64,000 nt of DNA from Escherichia phage ZCEC14: sequence record OP168898.1, one strand, 5' to 3'. Below the pieces are notes generated by a model. That model did not search any database. It saw only the letters and a program-made list of their open reading frames with translations, and was not told where the DNA came from. The position numbers were made by a program, and so were the translations under genes. Below are positions 4,466-29,612 of this stretch, one piece after another (within the stretch, counting starts at the first letter, position 1; every line of letters starts with the position of its first letter).

Positions 4466-6167
<1,702 letters not shown>

Positions 6168-26158: not shown

Positions 26159-26539
26159 ATGTATAAAGTGTACGCGGATTATCAGGCTAATCCATCTGAA
26201 AAGCCAGGTTGTCAAATTGGATGGGCTCATGATACTTTACTTGAAGCAGTAGATGCTGCTCAAAAATTGGGATATAAATATGTAGAGATTGTTCAACCGT
26301 CAGGAAAAGTTATTACTCTTGAAGAGTTCAATAACATTAAACCGAACTTTTTACTTTTTGCAGGTGATAATTATTATCCTCGTGGTGGATATGCTGATTT
26401 AATCGCGAAAGCCGCCACTGAAGATGAACTCCGTGACATTATCAAAGAAAATGAAAACAAACCAGATTATGGTTCCAATCGCTTTGATTGGTGGCAAATT
26501 GTAAATGCCAATACGCATACTATTGTTGATGAAGGTTGA
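26159..26539 (+). CDS. Hypothetical protein (126 aa)
   Basis: ATG 26159 immediately after stop of preceding ORF; ORF-track start at 26120 overlaps upstream gene. Confidence 0.55.
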   Translation: MYKVYADYQANPSEKPGCQIGWAHDTLLEAVDAAQKLGYKYVEIVQPSGKVITLEEFNNIKPNFLLFAGDNYYPRGGYADLIAKAATEDELRDIIKENENKPDYGSNRFDWWQIVNANTHTIVDEG

Positions 26540-26829
26540 TAATGATTCTTTATGCTAAAGTATCGTCTATTGAAAATGGATATAAATATGATCAAGACGC
26601 GGCTAAAGCCTTGATTGATGATTATGGCATTTTAACATGTTTTGAAGTTGAAAAAGTTTATATTGACCGTTCATCTTCTCAAGTTAAATTAGTGAAAGAA
26701 GACCGTAAATTTAACACAGTTAACTTTGATTTCTTTATTGAAACGGAAAAAGGTCCTCTTGAATATGATATTTTCAAGAATCCTTTGGGTCTTGAATGTA
26801 TCGTAAATACGTATCATCATAAATGGTAA
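26536..26829 (+). CDS. Hypothetical protein (97 aa)
   Basis: ATGA start/stop overlap with preceding ORF; phage-like codon usage. Confidence 0.55.
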   Translation: MIMILYAKVSSIENGYKYDQDAAKALIDDYGILTCFEVEKVYIDRSSSQVKLVKEDRKFNTVNFDFFIETEKGPLEYDIFKNPLGLECIVNTYHHKW

Positions 26830-26926
26830 ATATGCTTTAAGAATTATTTGTTATTATTAACTCATACCGCACTGATTAATACCCTCTATCATCAAGGGTT
26901 CTTGTTTGAGAGCCTTTGTTAATAAT

Positions 26927-26999
26927 TGGGAATTAGCCAAGTTGGTAAGGCACTGGATTTTGATTCCAGGATGCAAAGGTTCGAGTCCTTTATTCCCAG
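26927..26999 (+). tRNA. tRNA-Gln (anticodon UUG)
   Basis: Acceptor TGGGAAT/ATTCCCA, anticodon loop TTTTGAT, T-arm GGTTCGAGTCC. Confidence 0.85.
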
Positions 27000-27000
27000 C

Positions 27001-27087
27001 GCGAGAATGGTCAAATTGGTAAAGGCACAGCACTTAAAATGCTGCGGAATGATTTCCTTGTGGGTTCGAGTCCCACTTCTCGCACCA
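27001..27087 (+). tRNA. tRNA-Leu (anticodon UAA), class II with long variable arm, CCA encoded
   Basis: Acceptor GCGAGAA/TTCTCGC, anticodon loop CTTAAAA, T-arm GGTTCGAGTCC, 3' ACCA. Confidence 0.85.
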
Positions 27088-27092
27088 AATTT

Positions 27093-27166
<74 letters not shown>

Positions 27167-27176
27167 ATTTAATTTA

Positions 27177-27250
27177 CTCCGTGTAGCTCAGTTTGGTAGA
27201 GCGCCTGATTTGGGATCAGGAGGTCCAAGGTTCAAATCCTTGTATGGAGA
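27177..27250 (+). tRNA. tRNA-Pro (anticodon UGG)
   Basis: D-arm TAGCTCAGTTTGGTAGAGC, anticodon loop TTTGGGA, T-arm GGTTCAAATCC; no encoded CCA. Confidence 0.8.
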
Positions 27251-27252
27251 CT

Positions 27253-27342
27253 GGAGGCGTGGCAGAGTGGTTTAATGCACCGGTCTTGAAAACCGGCAGT
27301 CGCTCCGGCGACTCATAGGTTCAAATCCTATCGCCTCCGCCA
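27253..27342 (+). tRNA. tRNA-Ser (anticodon UGA), class II, CCA encoded
   Basis: Acceptor GGAGGCG/CGCCTCC, anticodon loop CTTGAAA, long variable arm, T-arm GGTTCAAATCC. Confidence 0.85.
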
Positions 27343-27347
27343 GTTTT

Positions 27348-27423
27348 GCTGATTTAGCTCAGTAGGTAGAGCAACTCACTTGTAATGAGAAGGTCGGCGG
27401 TTCGATTCCGTCAATCAGCACCA
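27348..27423 (+). tRNA. tRNA-Thr (anticodon UGU)
   Basis: Acceptor GCTGATT/AATCAGC, anticodon loop CTTGTAA, T-arm GGTTCGATTCC, 3' ACCA. Confidence 0.85.
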
Positions 27424-27424
27424 A

Positions 27425-27499
27425 GGCCCTGTAGCTGGAAGGTTCAAGCAAGCGACTCATAATCGCCAGATGGTGGTTCAATTCCACCCAGGGCCACCA
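27425..27499 (+). tRNA. tRNA-Ile (anticodon CAU, presumably lysidine-modified; tRNA-Met not excluded)
   Basis: Acceptor GGCCCTG/CAGGGCC, anticodon loop CTCATAA, T-arm GGTGGTTCAATTCCACC, 3' ACCA; position matches T4 tRNA-Ile. Confidence 0.7.
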
Positions 27500-27511
27500 A
27501 ATTATGAATTA

Positions 27512-27598
27512 GGGGAGTTATCCCGTAGAGGTAGCGGTGTGGACTGTAAATCCATTGTCATTGCGACTCGGGTGGTTCGACTCCATCACTCCCCACCA
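27512..27598 (+). tRNA. tRNA-Tyr (anticodon GUA), class II with long variable arm
   Basis: Acceptor GGGGAGT/ACTCCCC perfect 7 bp, anticodon loop CTGTAAA, variable stem GTC-ATTGC-GAC, T-arm GGTGGTTCGACTCCATC, 3' ACCA. Confidence 0.7.
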
Positions 27599-27602
27599 AT
27601 TT

Positions 27603-27677
27603 GGATGTGTAGCTCAATGGCAGAGCGATCGCCTGTTAAGCGATTGGTTATAGGTTCGAATCCTATCACGTCCGCCA
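27603..27677 (+). tRNA. tRNA-Asn (anticodon GUU)
   Basis: Acceptor GGATGTG/CACGTCC, D-arm GCTCAATGGCAGAGC, anticodon loop CTGTTAA, T-arm AGGTTCGAATCCT, 3' GCCA. Confidence 0.75.
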
Positions 27678-27681
27678 AATC

Positions 27682-27757
27682 CGAGGCATAGCTCAGAAGG
27701 AAGAGCAAGGACCTTCTAAGTCCTGGGTCGTAGGTTCGATCCCTACTGCCTCGACCA
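27682..27757 (+). tRNA. tRNA-Arg (anticodon UCU)
   Basis: Acceptor CGAGGCA/TGCCTCG, D-arm TAGCTCAGAAGGAAGAGC, anticodon loop CTTCTAA, T-arm GGTTCGATCCC, 3' ACCA. Confidence 0.85.
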
Positions 27758-27775
27758 ATTATAAGTGAGGAAAAT

Positions 27776-28126
27776 ATGAAAGGTAATGTTTATTTAGTAG
27801 TTCATGATTTAACATTCTATTTTAATCATAATGATACTGTTATTTCTGAACGTGTAATTAATTTACTTTATCAGCATGCAGATTATGTTTATGTTGAAAA
27901 CGAATTTGGACATTGGCAATTTATTAAAAATCGTTCATTTGGTTTAGATGGTTACGAATATTTTGAACGTAAAGACCTTTTAGATAAAATTCCGTTATCT
28001 ACACAATATCAAAATCATAAGTCTTTATATAAATGTCGGCTAATTCGAAATGCTGAATCTGCGTATGAAGCAATTGATTTATGGCGTAAACGCCGTGAAC
28101 AGATTGATGCTTTAAAAGAATATTAA
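27776..28126 (+). CDS. Hypothetical protein (116 aa)
   Basis: ORF with RBS GAGGAAAAT immediately after tRNA-Arg; analogous to T4 tRNA.x ORFs by position. Confidence 0.55.
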   Translation: MKGNVYLVVHDLTFYFNHNDTVISERVINLLYQHADYVYVENEFGHWQFIKNRSFGLDGYEYFERKDLLDKIPLSTQYQNHKSLYKCRLIRNAESAYEAIDLWRKRREQIDALKEY

Positions 28127-28485
28127 GAAACCGGGTCGCTACCGGTAAGTCGTCGGACTGATGTTCCCTGAGTAAGGACTAGCATTAACAAATCTTTGCG
28201 ATTGGTTAATGCCCCCTTACATCACAGCAGAAACGGCGCACCGAATTATCGATTCGAGGAAATATCTTTGCCGTAAGCCGAGTAGCGTTTTTGACGGAAC
28301 GTTCGGATATGGTCGAGATATGGCCTTTTAAAAATATTGAGTAGCGTCAACTGCTTAATAACCGGGTTCGAATCCCGGCGTTTCGTACAAACACTTGCCT
28401 TAGCAGGTGGAACCCCGACAAGGTTGCCGCAAGGCTTAGCCCCGACCGAAAGGTTGGGGCTTTTTAGTTTGAATCATATAGAGAA
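28127..28485 (+). ncRNA. Candidate structured non-coding RNA(s) with tRNA-like T-arm motif and strong terminal hairpin
   Basis: About 350 nt without a credible ORF; GC-rich helices (ACCGGGTCGCTACCGGT; CCGGGTTCGAATCCCGG at 28362-28378); ends in terminator 28438-28465. Confidence 0.35.
28438..28465 (+). terminator. Rho-independent terminator
   Basis: AGCCCC-GACCGAAAGGTT-GGGGCT hairpin followed by TTTTT. Confidence 0.75.
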
Positions 28486-28555
28486 TGCTGTTACGGATAA
28501 TAACAAAGTAATAAATAATTAATAACCAACCGATAAATTATTTCAAGGATTTTAA

Positions 28556-29119
28556 ATGAAAACCTATGCCGAATTTTTAACCGAAGCAGCAAAATTACCA
28601 TCTGAAGCAGATCTTACTAAAGTATTCTTCCAATTGGACCCCAAAGACCGTGGTGATTTTCTTAAGTGGAAAGCTAAAGCTATTGAAATGTATAACATTG
28701 ATAATAGTTCTTTTACGATGAGTCAAGAAAATAAATTCAATAAAGCATTTTTCAAAATTTCTAAGAAATTGGCATCTGGCACTCAGGTTCCTAAATCTGC
28801 CTTAGCTACTCCTGAACGTGCACCTGTTAAAATTTCTAAGAATATGTTTGACACTAAAAAATATGTCAATGCTTTGAATAAAGCTCTTGATGCATTGGAT
28901 GATGCAAAGAAGGCAGCTCGTGATCTTCAAGACGTGTACACCGATTTTGATCGTAAAACTAAAGGTTCTATTTCAAATAGCGAACGCAATAGTGTAAGTG
29001 TTTATTCCGATAGCCTTGATGTTCTTGGCGATGCGTATACTGAAATTAAAAATCGTATTAACACTGCATCTAAGCTAAAAGCTGCTGCCGAAGCTATAAT
29101 AACTAAACTAGGTAAATAA
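28556..29119 (+). CDS. Internal-protein-like ORF with CTS leader (MKTYAEFLTEA), 187 aa
   Basis: N-terminal leader matches T4 ip CTS pattern; lysine/alanine-rich helical protein; terminator downstream. Confidence 0.65.
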   Translation: MKTYAEFLTEAAKLPSEADLTKVFFQLDPKDRGDFLKWKAKAIEMYNIDNSSFTMSQENKFNKAFFKISKKLASGTQVPKSALATPERAPVKISKNMFDTKKYVNALNKALDALDDAKKAARDLQDVYTDFDRKTKGSISNSERNSVSVYSDSLDVLGDAYTEIKNRINTASKLKAAAEAIITKLGK

Positions 29120-29127
29120 TTTTAAAT

Positions 29128-29152
29128 CCCTATCTAAATGATAGGGCTTTTT
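29128..29152 (+). terminator. Rho-independent terminator
   Basis: CCCTATC-TAAAT-GATAGGG hairpin followed by CTTTTT. Confidence 0.75.
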
Positions 29153-29274
29153 GGTATCTAGGCCTTTCTGGACCTCTCTAGGCATCATTTAGTTTCTACC
29201 CTTTATAATATATTATCCTATCTTTTAATTGCCCCTCCCTGCTCTAGAATTCCCTAAAATTTTTTTCACAAAAC

Positions 29275-29305
29275 GGTTTACATCCCTGTTCTTCCATGGT
29301 ACTAT
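29275..29305 (+). promoter_or_regulatory. T4-type early promoter
   Basis: GTTTAC 29275-29280 and GGTACTATA -10-like; upstream TTCCCTAAAATTTTTTTCACAAA element shared with promoter at 57941-57978. Confidence 0.55.
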
Positions 29306-29348
29306 ACAACTATCAACTACTGATACAGAAAACAACTTGGAGAATAAA

Positions 29349-29612
29349 ATGGATAATTACGGCGAACTGTTCAACTTCTTTATGAAATGCGTTTCAGAAG
29401 ATTTCGGTCGTACAGTGAATGATATTAAAGTTATCGGTCCTGACCATCCGATGTTTGAAACTTACGCAGTAATGGGTAATGAAGACGGTCAGTGGTATAC
29501 TGTAAAGGTTGTGATTAACATGTTCACTGCTGAAGGTTATGTTAAACTGTCTTCTAAAGTTTACCATGATAACGATGAAATCGCAGAAGAATATTTCAAT
29601 AATATGAAATAA
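29349..29612 (+). CDS. Hypothetical protein (87 aa)
   Basis: ATG 29349 preceded by GGAGAATAAAATG cassette RBS; ORF-track start at 29229 lies upstream of the promoter. Confidence 0.6.
   Translation: MDNYGELFNFFMKCVSEDFGRTVNDIKVIGPDHPMFETYAVMGNEDGQWYTVKVVINMFTAEGYVKLSSKVYHDNDEIAEEYFNNMK

What the first reader, a model, noticed from the sequence alone, without database searches (positions are those of the whole stretch)
28127..28485. ORF-free, GC-rich structured segment with a tRNA-like T-arm and a strong terminator
About 350 nt after the 27776 ORF have no convincing reading frame; the only ORF-track hit (28337-28522) runs through the terminator. The segment holds several stable helices, including ACCGGGTCGCTACCGGT and a canonical T-arm-like CCGGGTTCGAATCCCGG followed by a possible acceptor-like 3' strand. 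It ends in AGCCCC...GGGGCT plus TTTTT at 28438-28465. It could encode one or two small stable RNAs, perhaps counterparts of the T4 tRNA-cluster stable RNAs, or a degenerate tRNA.
Basis: seen in the sequence. Interest (0 to 1): 0.6.

Follow-up and report, generated by a model that had tools for sequence, protein, structure and literature searches.

The report
Known T4 small stable RNAs rnaC/rnaD
The ORF-free segment is this phage's copy of phage T4's two small stable RNAs (species 2/rnaD and species 1/rnaC) plus the terminator of the tRNA gene cluster; these RNAs have been known since the 1970s, their function is still unknown, and the comparison made here shows rnaC to be a tRNA look-alike with two loops that pair with each other.

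Summary
Window 28127-28485 has no conserved ORF, is more GC-rich than its flanks, and holds the named helices and a strong intrinsic terminator. It is not new: it is 92-97% identical to the T4 rnaD-rnaC-terminator locus, which ends the tRNA cluster transcript. Mapped onto the window: rnaD 28123-28243, rnaC 28250-28386, conserved trailer 28387-28437, terminator 28438-28465. The "T-arm plus acceptor-like strand" belongs to rnaC.

Comparing 25 rnaC sequences from about ten genera of T4-like phages gives a tRNA-like four-arm cloverleaf:
- a 7-bp acceptor stem;
- a canonical T-arm;
- a roughly 25-bp long arm;
- a 10-bp hairpin.

In the count on 23 sequences, 97% of cells are paired and 32 of 52 pairs show compensatory changes. 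The 6-nt loops of the long arm and the hairpin are perfectly complementary and covary (UUGACG/CGUCAA, UUGAUG/CAUCAA, UUGGCG/CGCCAA). I found no report of this loop-loop contact.

A published convergent host-adaptation SNP in phage BW-1 restores a base pair in the apical hairpin of rnaD. Function remains unknown. Most likely both RNAs are excised by the tRNA-processing enzymes and rnaC acts as a non-decoding tRNA mimic. The element itself is already known, so interest is moderate.

The parts
28123..28243 (+). rnaD, the orthologue of T4 species 2 RNA (about 121 nt). The 5' end overlaps the TAA stop (28124-28126) of ORF 27776-28126. Both ends are transferred by alignment, not measured.
   Evidence: Aligned to the T4 X03016 'species 2 RNA' feature 4615-4734 and to RB3 rnaD. 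Covariance model R2 scores 142.9 bits, E = 1.4e-37, over 28123-28243.
28130..28146 (+). rnaD 5' hairpin ACCGG-GUCGCUA-CCGGU.
   Evidence: RNAalifold on 17 sequences; the closing pair is A-U in 13, G-C in 3 and G-U in 1. Karamvirus and Moonvirus rnaD-like elements keep a hairpin here with a different, covarying stem.
28149..28241 (+). rnaD body. The closing stem GUCGUCG (28149-28155) pairs with CGGCG-C-AC (28234-28241). It encloses inner stems and a variable apical hairpin (about 28170-28220).
   Evidence: 96.9% of cells paired and 5 pairs with compensatory change. The closing stem is invariant, so it is untested by covariation. The apical hairpin comes in three sequence types, each self-complementary.
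28244..28249 (+). A/U-rich spacer AAUUAU between rnaD and rnaC.
   Evidence: Same spacer (AATTAT) in T4 and RB3. That it is a processing site is an inference.
28250..28386 (+). rnaC, the orthologue of T4 species 1 RNA (137 encoded nt). It is a tRNA-like cloverleaf.
   Evidence: Aligned to the T4 X03016 'species 1 RNA' feature 4741-4877. Model R1 scores 159.8 bits, E = 4e-40, over 28249-28390. At least 99% identical in 490 phage records.
28250..28256 (+). rnaC acceptor-like stem, 5' strand CGAUUCG. It pairs with 28379-28385 (CGUUUCG) and has two central U.U mismatches.
   Evidence: A-U changes to G-C at the third pair (9 against 14 sequences). In Tegunavirus the two U.U positions become U-A and C-G, giving a perfect 7-bp stem.
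28257..28326 (+). rnaC long arm (about 25 bp with bulges) in the position of a tRNA D-arm. Its apical 6-nt loop UUGACG lies at 28291-28296.
   Evidence: Helices 2-4: 20 of 26 pairs show compensatory changes. A second, unrelated arm sequence of the same length occurs in the Gelderland, PEi20, Kanagawa and Marfa types.
28327..28334 (+). A-rich linker UUUAAAAA, with an invariant AAAA.
   Evidence: Invariant columns in A5.
28335..28360 (+). rnaC hairpin 2 (10 bp). Its 6-nt loop CGUCAA (28345-28350) is complementary to the long-arm loop.
   Evidence: 7 of 10 stem pairs show compensatory change. For the loop-loop pairing 28291-28296 x 28345-28350, 100% of cells are paired in 23 distinct sequences, with compensatory changes at two positions in two separate lineages.
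It abuts the acceptor 3' strand 28379-28385; the discriminator is U28386.
   Evidence: Compensatory changes at two of the five stem pairs: the middle pair is G-C in the window and U-A in most other genera, and the second pair is C-G against U-A in Tegunavirus. The geometry is that of a tRNA, with no linker between T-stem and acceptor strand.
28387..28437 (+). Conserved 3' trailer, with hairpin 28392-28409 and AACC-CCGACAA-GGUU at 28411-28425.
   Evidence: Nearly invariant against T4. Kept in JS98, IME08 and VR5, where rnaC is absent. Fold z = -3.8.
28438..28465 (+). Intrinsic terminator of the tRNA-cluster transcription unit.
   Evidence: 10 pairs, 7 G-C, GAAA loop, T run. Annotated as terminator in Aplg8 and X03016. 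PMC2330249 states that the T4 cluster transcript terminates after the species I gene.

Best explanation
The segment is the 3' end of the tRNA-cluster transcription unit of a Tequatrovirus (T4-like phage). It encodes, in order, rnaD (T4 species 2 RNA), rnaC (T4 species 1 RNA), a conserved trailer and the operon terminator.

Established for T4 in the literature: both RNAs are cut out of the long tRNA precursor transcript, accumulate as stable RNAs, and have no known function.

Shown here:
- rnaC is a four-arm, tRNA-like cloverleaf. A 7-bp acceptor stem stacks directly on a canonical T-arm (the 'top half' of a tRNA).
- The D-arm and anticodon arm are replaced by a roughly 25-bp arm and a 10-bp hairpin.
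- The 6-nt loops of those two arms form a covarying 6-bp loop-loop helix.
- rnaD is a separate structured RNA: a 5' hairpin plus a long irregular arm with a variable tip.

Inferred biogenesis (about 0.8): the acceptor/T minihelix makes rnaC a substrate of the host tRNA machinery. RNase P would cut at C28250; 3' trimming would stop at discriminator U28386; non-templated CCA would be added, giving 137 + 3 = the classical 140 nt. That same machinery would make the RNA stable.

Inferred function (about 0.3): rnaC has no anticodon arm and cannot decode. It would act as a tRNA mimic that titrates or recruits a factor reading the acceptor/T half of tRNA, for example a host tRNA-directed defence or tRNA-end enzyme.

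The arm lengths are conserved and unequal, which fits this.

rnaD contributes to growth on particular hosts, and its folded apical hairpin matters.
For: Identity
- 806 phage records match, at 92-97% identity to T4-type loci over the whole segment. Curated annotations read rnaD, rnaC and terminator.
- Synteny is the same: directly downstream of the tRNA array (10 tRNAs at 26927-27757).

Expression in T4
- A 1.75-kb primary transcript runs through the cluster and ends after species I (PMC2330249).
- A Northern blot of RNAC used a probe identical to window 28249-28305. RNAC and RNAD were classed as late RNAs of unknown function (PMC9697503; PMC3014915).

rnaC structure
- The single-sequence MFE equals the comparative consensus.
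- 52 pairs, 97.2% of cells paired, 32 pairs with compensatory change, 0/500 shuffles as good, slid controls 39-47%.
- The acceptor stem is perfect in Tegunavirus.
- The weak hits of model R1 are ordinary tRNAs at 12-30 bits, against 92-163 bits for rnaC.
- In other genera rnaC sits as one unit of the tRNA array, between tRNA-Trp and tRNA-Gly with 5-8 nt spacers.

Loop-loop helix
- 100% paired in 23 sequences. The three loop-pair variants are UUGACG/CGUCAA, UUGAUG/CAUCAA (Tegunavirus) and UUGGCG/CGCCAA (Marfavirus).
- The loop is kept when the arm beneath it is replaced.

CCA inference
- The X03016 authors end each tRNA feature at the last templated base. They end species 1 at ...CGUUUCGU, before genomic ACA.

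rnaD phenotype
- The single convergent SNP in all BW-1 lines adapted to ECOR34 raised virulence from 0.17 to 0.98 (PMC12685909).
- It maps to CACAG-UUUUA-CU[A>G]UG and restores the C-G pair present in KNP5 and the ZN18 type.
- MFE is -25.9 kcal/mol with the fold lost, against -31.0 with the fold restored.
Against: - No experiment on this phage: transcript ends are transferred from T4 by alignment. Here an ORF, not tRNA-Arg, precedes rnaD, so its 5' end may differ.
- RNase P cleavage, CCA addition and T/psi modification of species 1 are inferred from structure, from an annotation convention and from my recollection of the 140-nt length. They are not documented in papers I could read.
- The Winklervirus homologue has a non-canonical 6-nt T-loop, so a canonical T-loop is not universal.
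- The loop-loop covariation rests on two independent events only.
- The decoy or scaffold function has no direct support. T4 deletions of the whole tRNA region are viable on laboratory hosts (my knowledge), so any function is conditional.
- Dhakaviruses lack rnaC altogether.
- No target, partner or host homologue was found.
Confidence: 0.85

Rival explanations
1. The RNAs are only by-products of a cis-acting module. The structured segments would exist to direct processing of the tRNA precursor, protect its 3' end from exonucleases and terminate transcription, with no trans function.
For: - In Tequatrovirus and Dhakavirus, rnaD, the trailer and the terminator always close the tRNA operon.
- The trailer is conserved even without rnaC.
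- Literature up to 2025 reports no function.
Against: - rnaC in other genera lies in the middle of tRNA arrays, far from any terminator.
- Its loops and linker are invariant, and its loop-loop contact covaries. A mere processing spacer would not need this.
- A point change in the rnaD apical hairpin has a strong host-specific phenotype.
Confidence: 0.12
2. They are base-pairing regulatory sRNAs that act on host or phage mRNAs, possibly through Hfq or ProQ. The trailer plus terminator could be an additional 3'-derived sRNA.
For: - Invariant single-stranded stretches exist, such as the rnaD loop GUCGCUA and the rnaC linker AAAAA.
- The 3' trailer ends in a terminator hairpin plus U tail, as Hfq-binding sRNAs do.
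- A 2022 paper calls them 'small regulatory RNAs'.
Against: - blastn found no similarity to any of 5,426 E. coli genomes on either strand. This excludes only long complementarity.
- The most conserved rnaC loops pair with each other rather than being free.
- A 2010 review states that no trans-acting regulatory RNA had been characterised in T4.
Confidence: 0.1
3. The segment is a decaying tRNA pseudogene, or two of them, with no selected function.
For: - A T-arm and acceptor strand are present, but no D-arm or anticodon arm is detected by ARAGORN or Rfam.
- Some genome records and ARAGORN call homologues odd tRNAs.
Against: - rnaC is at least 99% identical in 490 records and recognisable across about ten genera.
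- 32 pairs show compensatory change, including the non-tRNA arms.
- The ARAGORN-type alternative acceptor has no compensatory support.
Confidence: 0.02
4. The region encodes small proteins: ORF 28209-28331 and ORF 28337-28522.
For: Both translations match PHROG families (phrog_24262 at 6e-33, phrog_28391 at 2e-34). Many GenBank records annotate 'hypothetical protein' here.
Against: - ORF 28209-28331 carries a stop in T4 itself and 1-3 stops in the Gelderland, Edwardsiella-phage and Marfa types.
- ORF 28337-28522 starts with TTG only in Tequatrovirus; elsewhere the codon is CAA, TAT, TAG or CAG. It also runs through the terminator into non-homologous DNA.
- Substitutions are paired across stems rather than following codon periodicity.
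- The PHROG hits are explained by nucleotide conservation of mis-called ORFs.
Confidence: 0.02

Closest known systems
Bacteriophage T4 species 1 RNA (rnaC) and species 2 RNA (rnaD)
   Same: Same genes. rnaC is 98-100% identical to the T4, RB3 and RB10 genes, and rnaD is about 90-97% identical. Order (rnaD, 6-nt spacer, rnaC, trailer, terminator) and position at the end of the tRNA cluster are the same.
   Different: Here a 116-aa ORF (phrog_3355) separates tRNA-Arg from rnaD, whereas T4 has 1 nt and carries segB elsewhere. The apical hairpin of rnaD differs by a few bases and 2 extra nt.
tRNA (Rfam RF00005), acceptor/T-arm 'top half'
   Same: rnaC has a 7-bp acceptor stem joined without a linker to a 5-bp T-stem with loop UUCGAAU, and a single discriminator base. 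It lies in tRNA arrays with tRNA-like spacers, and tRNAs are the weak hits of the rnaC model.
   Different: There is no D-arm and no 5-bp/7-nt anticodon arm; a 25-bp arm and a 10-bp hairpin locked by a loop-loop helix stand in their place. There are two U.U mismatches in the acceptor stem, CCA is not encoded, and ARAGORN and Rfam do not detect it in the window.
   Same: A small phage-encoded structured RNA of about 120-170 nt with two loops that are complementary to each other and covary among relatives.
   Different: pRNA has 4-nt loop pairs and a three-way junction, binds the portal and is needed for DNA packaging. T4 packaging needs no RNA. There is no sequence or Rfam similarity. Whether the rnaC pairing is intermolecular is unknown.
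ROOL and GOLLD RNAs of phages and prophages
   Same: Structured RNAs of unknown function encoded next to phage tRNA islands. Cryo-EM shows RNA-only homo-oligomers (PMC12286853).
   Different: They are 500-800+ nt with unrelated folds and give no Rfam hit here. Oligomerisation of rnaC is only a hypothesis.
Other bacterial tRNA-like RNAs: tmRNA and YrlA (Y RNA-like)
   Same: A tRNA-like acceptor/T module fused to a non-tRNA body.
   Different: ARAGORN finds no tmRNA. Rfam tmRNA and YrlA models hit only the true tRNAs upstream, not 28123-28470. There is no tag reading frame, and no long 5'/3' stem as in Y RNAs.

Membership tests
T4 rnaC (species 1 RNA) | Sequence homology to the sequenced T4 species 1 RNA gene over its full length | tested here: met
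   The 148-nt query is 98.6-100% identical to T4, RB3 and RB10 records annotated rnaC. It aligns to the X03016 feature 4741-4877.
T4 rnaC (species 1 RNA) | Location in the tRNA gene cluster, downstream of rnaD and upstream of the cluster terminator | tested here: met
T4 rnaC (species 1 RNA) | Accumulates as a discrete stable RNA of about 140 nt in infected cells | not testable with these tools
   Shown for T4 by others (Northern, PMC9697503), not for this phage.
T4 rnaD (species 2 RNA) | Sequence homology to the T4 species 2 RNA gene, including both conserved ends | tested here: met
   About 90% identical to X03016 'species 2 RNA' and up to 97.7% to other Tequatrovirus records. Model R2 scores 142.9 bits.
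tRNA | 7-bp acceptor stem contiguous with a 5-bp T-stem and a 7-nt T-loop (UUCRANY) | tested here: met
   28250-56/28379-85 and 28362-78, both supported by compensatory changes.
tRNA | D-arm and an anticodon arm with a 7-nt loop presenting an anticodon; detection by tRNA models | tested here: not met
   ARAGORN and Rfam tRNA find nothing in 28123-28470. The arms are 25 bp and 10 bp with 6-nt loops. The ARAGORN 'tRNA-Phe' call in KKP_3262 uses an acceptor pairing without compensatory support.
tRNA | 3'-terminal CCA and aminoacylation | not testable with these tools
   CCA is not encoded: U28386 is followed by ACA. Post-transcriptional addition is inferred from how X03016 annotates feature ends.
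tmRNA | tRNA-like domain plus a tag-peptide reading frame and pseudoknots | tested here: not met
   ARAGORN reports no tmRNA in the window. Rfam tmRNA families give no hit in the segment.
YrlA / Y RNA-like | Match to the Rfam RF02553 architecture | tested here: not met
   The only YrlA hits (E = 0.014 and 1.5) lie over genuine tRNAs at 27113-27229 and 27644-27708.
Intrinsic (Rho-independent) terminator | G+C-rich hairpin followed immediately by a U run, at the end of a transcription unit | tested here: met
   28438-28461 plus the T run. It is conserved, with a compensatory change in JS98. Termination itself has been shown only for T4.
   28291-96 x 28345-50: 100% paired in 23 sequences, with three loop-pair variants.
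   Only a geometric argument is available: the arms are about 25 bp and 10 bp and their bases are adjacent at the junction.
Hammerhead ribozyme (considered for rnaD because of CUGAUG...GAAAC) | Conserved core CUGANGA...GAAA around a three-way junction | tested here: not met
   The sequence is CUGAUGU or CUGAAGU, so the core A is absent. No Rfam hammerhead hit at E <= 10.

The most novel reading that the evidence does not exclude
rnaC is a non-decoding tRNA mimic whose long-arm loop and hairpin-2 loop pair between molecules. This would be a miniature RNA-only assembly encoded in the tRNA islands of T4-like phages, analogous in principle to phi29 pRNA rings and to the ROOL and GOLLD cages. Together with rnaD it would act as a host-range or counter-defence factor. 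The evidence does not exclude this. The loop complementarity covaries, the unequal arm lengths are conserved even when the arm sequence is replaced, and a single base-pair-restoring change in rnaD switches a T4-like phage from poor to full virulence on one E. coli strain.
Probability: 0.2. Interest if true: 0.75.

Novelty: already known. Interest (0 to 1): 0.35.

Why it matters
The locus itself is textbook T4 biology, so finding it in a T4-like genome is not news. Three points give it some value.

1. These two RNAs are among the oldest 'orphan' non-coding RNAs. They were sequenced in the 1970s and were still described as of unknown function in 2010, 2022 and 2025. No Rfam family covers them.
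   - As a result, genome pipelines mis-annotate them as hypothetical proteins or odd tRNAs.
   - They have even seeded two apparently spurious PHROG families.
2. The comparative model built here turns an open question into concrete mutational experiments. The model comprises a tRNA top half, a covarying loop-loop helix, two interchangeable long arms of equal length, and presence across about ten genera of T4-like phages.
3. A published convergent host-adaptation SNP can be re-read as restoring a base pair in the apical hairpin of rnaD. This ties rnaD structure to a host-specific phenotype.

Tried and rejected
- **Rfam.** Gathering thresholds over the whole window and E <= 10 over 26500-29500 gave nothing in the segment except chance-level hits (isrK on the - strand E = 2.1, anti-hemB 6.6, Rev39 3.4).
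- **ARAGORN.** No tRNA or tmRNA in the segment.
- **ARAGORN-style cloverleaf for rnaC.** This uses the internal ACGRAAC as the acceptor 5' strand, as called 'tRNA-Phe' in KKP_3262. In correct register (the +1 slide row; my input was one column off) it is 85.7% paired with no compensatory change, and G.U becomes A.C in other genera. Rejected in favour of the terminal stem.
- **tRNA-like 3' end for rnaD.** T4 encodes ...GCGCACCA, but the terminal bases vary (CCA, CCG, CAG, CCT) and no 7-bp acceptor plus T-arm can be drawn. Not supported.
- **Hammerhead-like core in rnaD.** Rejected.
- **Coding potential.** Rejected.
- **Host origin or a long antisense target.** No blastn match in 5,426 complete E. 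coli genomes.
- **Homologues outside T4-like phages.**
  - A loose pattern scan of IMG/VR returned ordinary tRNAs. The rnaC model scored 100 of those loci at no more than 30 bits.
  - A scan of GTDB genomes returned at least 120 matches, about the number expected by chance. None of the 80 I tested was confirmed by the model.
  - A stricter IMG/VR pattern found nothing.
- **Literature.** Searches for a function, a published tRNA-like or kissing-loop model, or the original sequencing papers found only the statements cited. Miller et al. 2003 is not held.
Full report
**1. What is in the sequence**

The window is a T4-like (Tequatrovirus) genome segment. ARAGORN and Rfam find ten tRNA genes at 26927-27757 on the + strand. 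These are followed by a 116-aa ORF (27776-28126, phrog_3355, unknown function), and then by the segment in question.

- hairpin ACCGG-GUCGCUA-CCGGU at 28130-28146;
- CCGGG-UUCGAAU-CCCGG at 28362-28378, followed at once by CGUUUCG;
- a 10-bp GC-rich hairpin with a T run at 28438-28465.

GC content is 0.445-0.47, against 0.27-0.38 in the flanking genes. The + strand folds far better than shuffled sequence, with z = -5.1.

Only short ORFs cross the segment. None is conserved as a reading frame. ORF 28209-28331 has a stop in T4 itself. ORF 28337-28522 loses its start codon outside Tequatrovirus and runs through the terminator into DNA that is not homologous between phages. Both nevertheless match PHROG families. 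I take those families to be built from ORFs mis-called over conserved RNA genes.

**2. Identity**

blastn of 28100-28500 against 50,697 phage records finds 806 records, 678 of them covering at least 80% of the query, almost all T4-like coliphages. In curated records the matching DNA is annotated rnaD (species 2 RNA), rnaC (species 1 RNA) and terminator:
- T4 KJ477684;
- Aplg8;
- the original T4 tRNA-region entry X03016;
- RB3.

The four-way alignment is nearly invariant from 28127 to 28466. Transferring the X03016 features gives these window coordinates:

| Element | Window coordinates |
|---|---|
| rnaD | 28123-28243 |
| spacer AAUUAU | 28244-28249 |
| rnaC | 28250-28386 |
| conserved trailer | 28387-28437 |
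| terminator | 28438-28465 |

Covariance models built here find exactly one copy of each RNA in the window: rnaC at 159.8 bits and rnaD at 142.9 bits. Rfam has no family for either.

The literature agrees with this reading:
- In T4 the middle-promoter transcript of about 1.75 kb runs through the whole cluster, terminates after the species I gene, and is the precursor of the tRNAs and of species I and II RNAs (PMC2330249).
- RNAC is seen by Northern blot with a probe identical to window 28249-28305, and both RNAs behave as late-accumulating RNAs 'of yet unknown functions' (PMC9697503).
- A 2010 review says their biological roles are unknown (PMC3014915).

**3. Anatomy of rnaC**

rnaC is far more conserved than its neighbours, being at least 99% identical in 490 records.

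More distant homologues exist in several other groups of T4-like phages:
- named genera: Karamvirus, Moonvirus, Winklervirus, Tegunavirus, Gelderlandvirus, Kanagawavirus, Gaprivervirus and Marfavirus;
- Edwardsiella phages, which were not assigned to one of these genera here.

In most of these rnaC sits inside the tRNA array, most often between tRNA-Trp and tRNA-Gly with spacers of a few nucleotides.

RNAalifold on 17 distinct sequences returns the same structure as the single-sequence MFE. It is a four-way junction made of:
- a 7-bp terminal stem (28250-56 with 28379-85);
- a roughly 25-bp interrupted arm (28257-28326);
- an A-rich linker;
- a 10-bp hairpin (28335-28360);
- one linker base;
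- a 5-bp stem with the loop UUCGAAU (28362-78) that abuts the terminal stem with no linker.

On the model-based alignment of 23 distinct sequences, 97.2% of cells are paired. 32 of 52 pairs show changes on both sides. No shuffle reaches the observed values, and slid registers give 39-47% pairing.

The terminal stem carries two U.U mismatches in T4-type phages. In Tegunavirus these positions become U-A and C-G, and A-U alternates with G-C at the third pair.

The acceptor/T 'top half' is thus that of a tRNA, while the D-arm and anticodon arm are replaced. The weak hits of the rnaC model are ordinary tRNAs at 12-30 bits. Annotation pipelines sometimes call rnaC homologues tRNA-Phe, tRNA-Lys or tRNA-OTHER. 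The cloverleaf ARAGORN proposes for KKP_3262 uses an internal acceptor strand that has no compensatory support.

**4. A covarying loop-loop helix**

The 6-nt apical loop of the long arm (UUGACG, 28291-28296) is the exact complement of the 6-nt loop of hairpin 2 (CGUCAA, 28345-28350). The pairing holds in all 23 distinct sequences and changes in concert in two separate lineages:

| Lineage | Long-arm loop | Hairpin-2 loop |
|---|---|---|
| T4 type and most genera | UUGACG | CGUCAA |
| Tegunavirus | UUGAUG | CAUCAA |
| Marfavirus-type Klebsiella phages | UUGGCG | CGCCAA |

Slid controls give at most 50% pairing.

The long arm comes in two unrelated sequence versions of the same length. One is the T4 type. 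The other occurs in Gelderlandvirus, Edwardsiella phage PEi20, Kanagawavirus and Marfavirus. Both versions end in this loop.

Two independent covariation events are few, but together with the invariance and the preserved arm length I regard the contact as real. I found no report of it in the papers I could search.

Whether the contact forms within one molecule or between molecules cannot be decided here. The bases of the two arms are adjacent at the junction and the arms are about 25 and 10 bp long. An intramolecular contact would therefore need a sharp fold-back of the long arm.

Other phage RNAs encoded beside tRNA islands, ROOL and GOLLD, are now known to form RNA-only homo-oligomers (PMC12286853). 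This is an analogy, not evidence.

**5. Anatomy of rnaD and the trailer**

rnaD is less conserved, at 78-97% identity. The consensus of 17 sequences has three parts:
- a 5' hairpin whose closing pair alternates between A-U and G-C;
- an invariant 7-bp closing stem with one bulge;
- inner stems with compensatory changes.

Overall, 96.9% of cells are paired and 5 pairs show double changes.

The apical hairpin exists in three unrelated but self-complementary versions.

Weaker full-length matches at 24-28 bits show rnaD-like elements after tRNA-Asn in Karamvirus, and one in Moonvirus. They share the motifs AAGUCGUC, UCCCUG and GGCGC.

Dhakaviruses (JS98, IME08, VR5) have rnaD joined directly to the trailer and terminator, with no rnaC. 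The two RNAs are therefore separable modules.

I could not draw a tRNA-like end for rnaD. The CCA encoded in T4 is not conserved.

**6. A link to phenotype**

A 2025 evolution study found one convergent SNP (T>C at position 164264) in all lines of the T4-like phage BW-1 adapted to E. coli ECOR34. Virulence rose from 0.17 to 0.98. The authors mapped the SNP to rnaD but saw no clear structural effect (PMC12685909).

In the GenBank record the position is an A on the RNA strand, inside the apical hairpin CACAG-UUUUA-CUAUG. The A>G change restores the C-G pair and makes BW-1 rnaD identical to that of phage KNP5. The ancestral sequence loses the consensus fold (MFE -25.9 kcal/mol), whereas the KNP5 or evolved sequence keeps it (-31.0).

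This is indirect evidence that the folded rnaD has a host-specific function. It assumes that the coordinates in the paper are those of the GenBank record. That fits the range of 164080-164336 the authors give for the two RNAs.

**7. How it most likely works**

Shown here:
- identity with T4 rnaD and rnaC;
- the structures and the loop-loop contact;
- the terminator;
- the absence of a conserved ORF.

Established by others for T4:
- co-transcription with the tRNAs;
- excision from the precursor;
- stability and late accumulation.

Inferred, probability about 0.8: the acceptor/T minihelix makes rnaC a substrate of the tRNA maturation machinery, which both releases and stabilises it. This would mean RNase P at the 5' end, 3' trimming to the discriminator U28386, and CCA addition.

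The CCA inference has two legs. The X03016 authors end each tRNA feature at the last templated base and end species 1 at ...CGUUUCGU, before genomic ACA. From my own recollection, the mature RNA was reported as 140 nt, which is 137 + 3.

Inferred, probability about 0.3: rnaC cannot decode. It would act as a tRNA mimic that titrates or recruits something which reads the tRNA top half, possibly as a multimer. rnaD would act in a host-dependent way.

Rivals:
- a purely cis-acting processing and termination module (0.12);
- base-pairing sRNAs (0.10);
- a tRNA pseudogene (0.02);
- small proteins (0.02).

**8. Verdict**

The feature is already known, and its presence here is ordinary. The residual interest lies in the unsolved function and in three testable features found on the way: the tRNA top half, the covarying loop-loop helix, and the pair-restoring adaptive SNP.

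Noticed in passing
window 28209-28331 and 28337-28522: Two short ORFs lying over rnaC/rnaD match PHROG families phrog_24262 and phrog_28391 at E about 1e-33, yet are not conserved as reading frames. These PHROGs appear to be built from ORFs mis-called over RNA genes. Many GenBank records annotate 'hypothetical protein' here.
   Followed up: partly
L004 1547-1642 (Enterobacter phage KKP_3262); also records MK327928 and MK373779: rnaC homologues are annotated as tRNA-Phe, tRNA-Lys or tRNA-OTHER in public records. ARAGORN reproduces the tRNA-Phe call using an acceptor pairing that covariation does not support.
   Followed up: yes
L146 position 399 (Escherichia phage BW-1, record position 164264): The single convergent SNP reported for adaptation of BW-1 to E. 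coli ECOR34 is A>G on the RNA strand, in the apical hairpin of rnaD. It restores a C-G pair found in relatives (KNP5, ZN18 type) and about 5 kcal/mol of predicted stability.
   Followed up: yes
L006 1499-1700, L143, L144 (Dhakavirus JS98, IME08, VR5): These phages keep rnaD, the trailer and the terminator but lack rnaC entirely. rnaC therefore behaves as an independent insertable module.
   Followed up: partly
L004 72-173, L014 6805-6905, L018 1747-1848, L022 790-890 (-): rnaD-like elements in Karamvirus and Moonvirus tRNA arrays score 24-28 bits with the rnaD model and share AAGUCGUC, UCCCUG and GGCGC. Their 5' hairpin has a covarying stem and a constant GACG loop, which is complementary to CGUC in the rnaC hairpin-2 loop.
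   Followed up: no
window 28387-28437: The trailer between rnaC and the terminator is almost invariant and is kept even where rnaC is missing. It holds a 7-bp hairpin (28392-28409) and AACC-CCGACAA-GGUU (28411-28425). The motif CCCCGAC..AAGGUU recurs inside the terminator hairpin. With its terminator and U tail, the trailer could be released as a third small RNA.
   Followed up: no
window 27776-28126: A 116-aa ORF of unknown function (phrog_3355; 'RB69ORF150c' in ime09) sits between tRNA-Arg and rnaD, where T4 has a single nucleotide. Its stop codon overlaps the predicted rnaD 5' end. The T4 homing endonuclease gene segB is absent, and tRNA-Tyr and tRNA-Asn are present in addition to the T4 set.
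   Followed up: partly
window 28282-28290 and 28340-28348: The 9-mer GAGUAGCGU occurs twice in rnaC, just 5' of each of the two kissing loops. The duplication is not kept in Tegunavirus or the Marfa type, so it is probably a lineage-specific trace of how the arms arose.
   Followed up: partly
L011, L023, L147-L153 against the window, rnaC long arm: Two unrelated sequence versions of the rnaC long arm exist, with the same overall length (about 68-70 nt) and the same terminal 6-nt loop. This suggests that arm length, not arm sequence, is under selection.
   Followed up: partly
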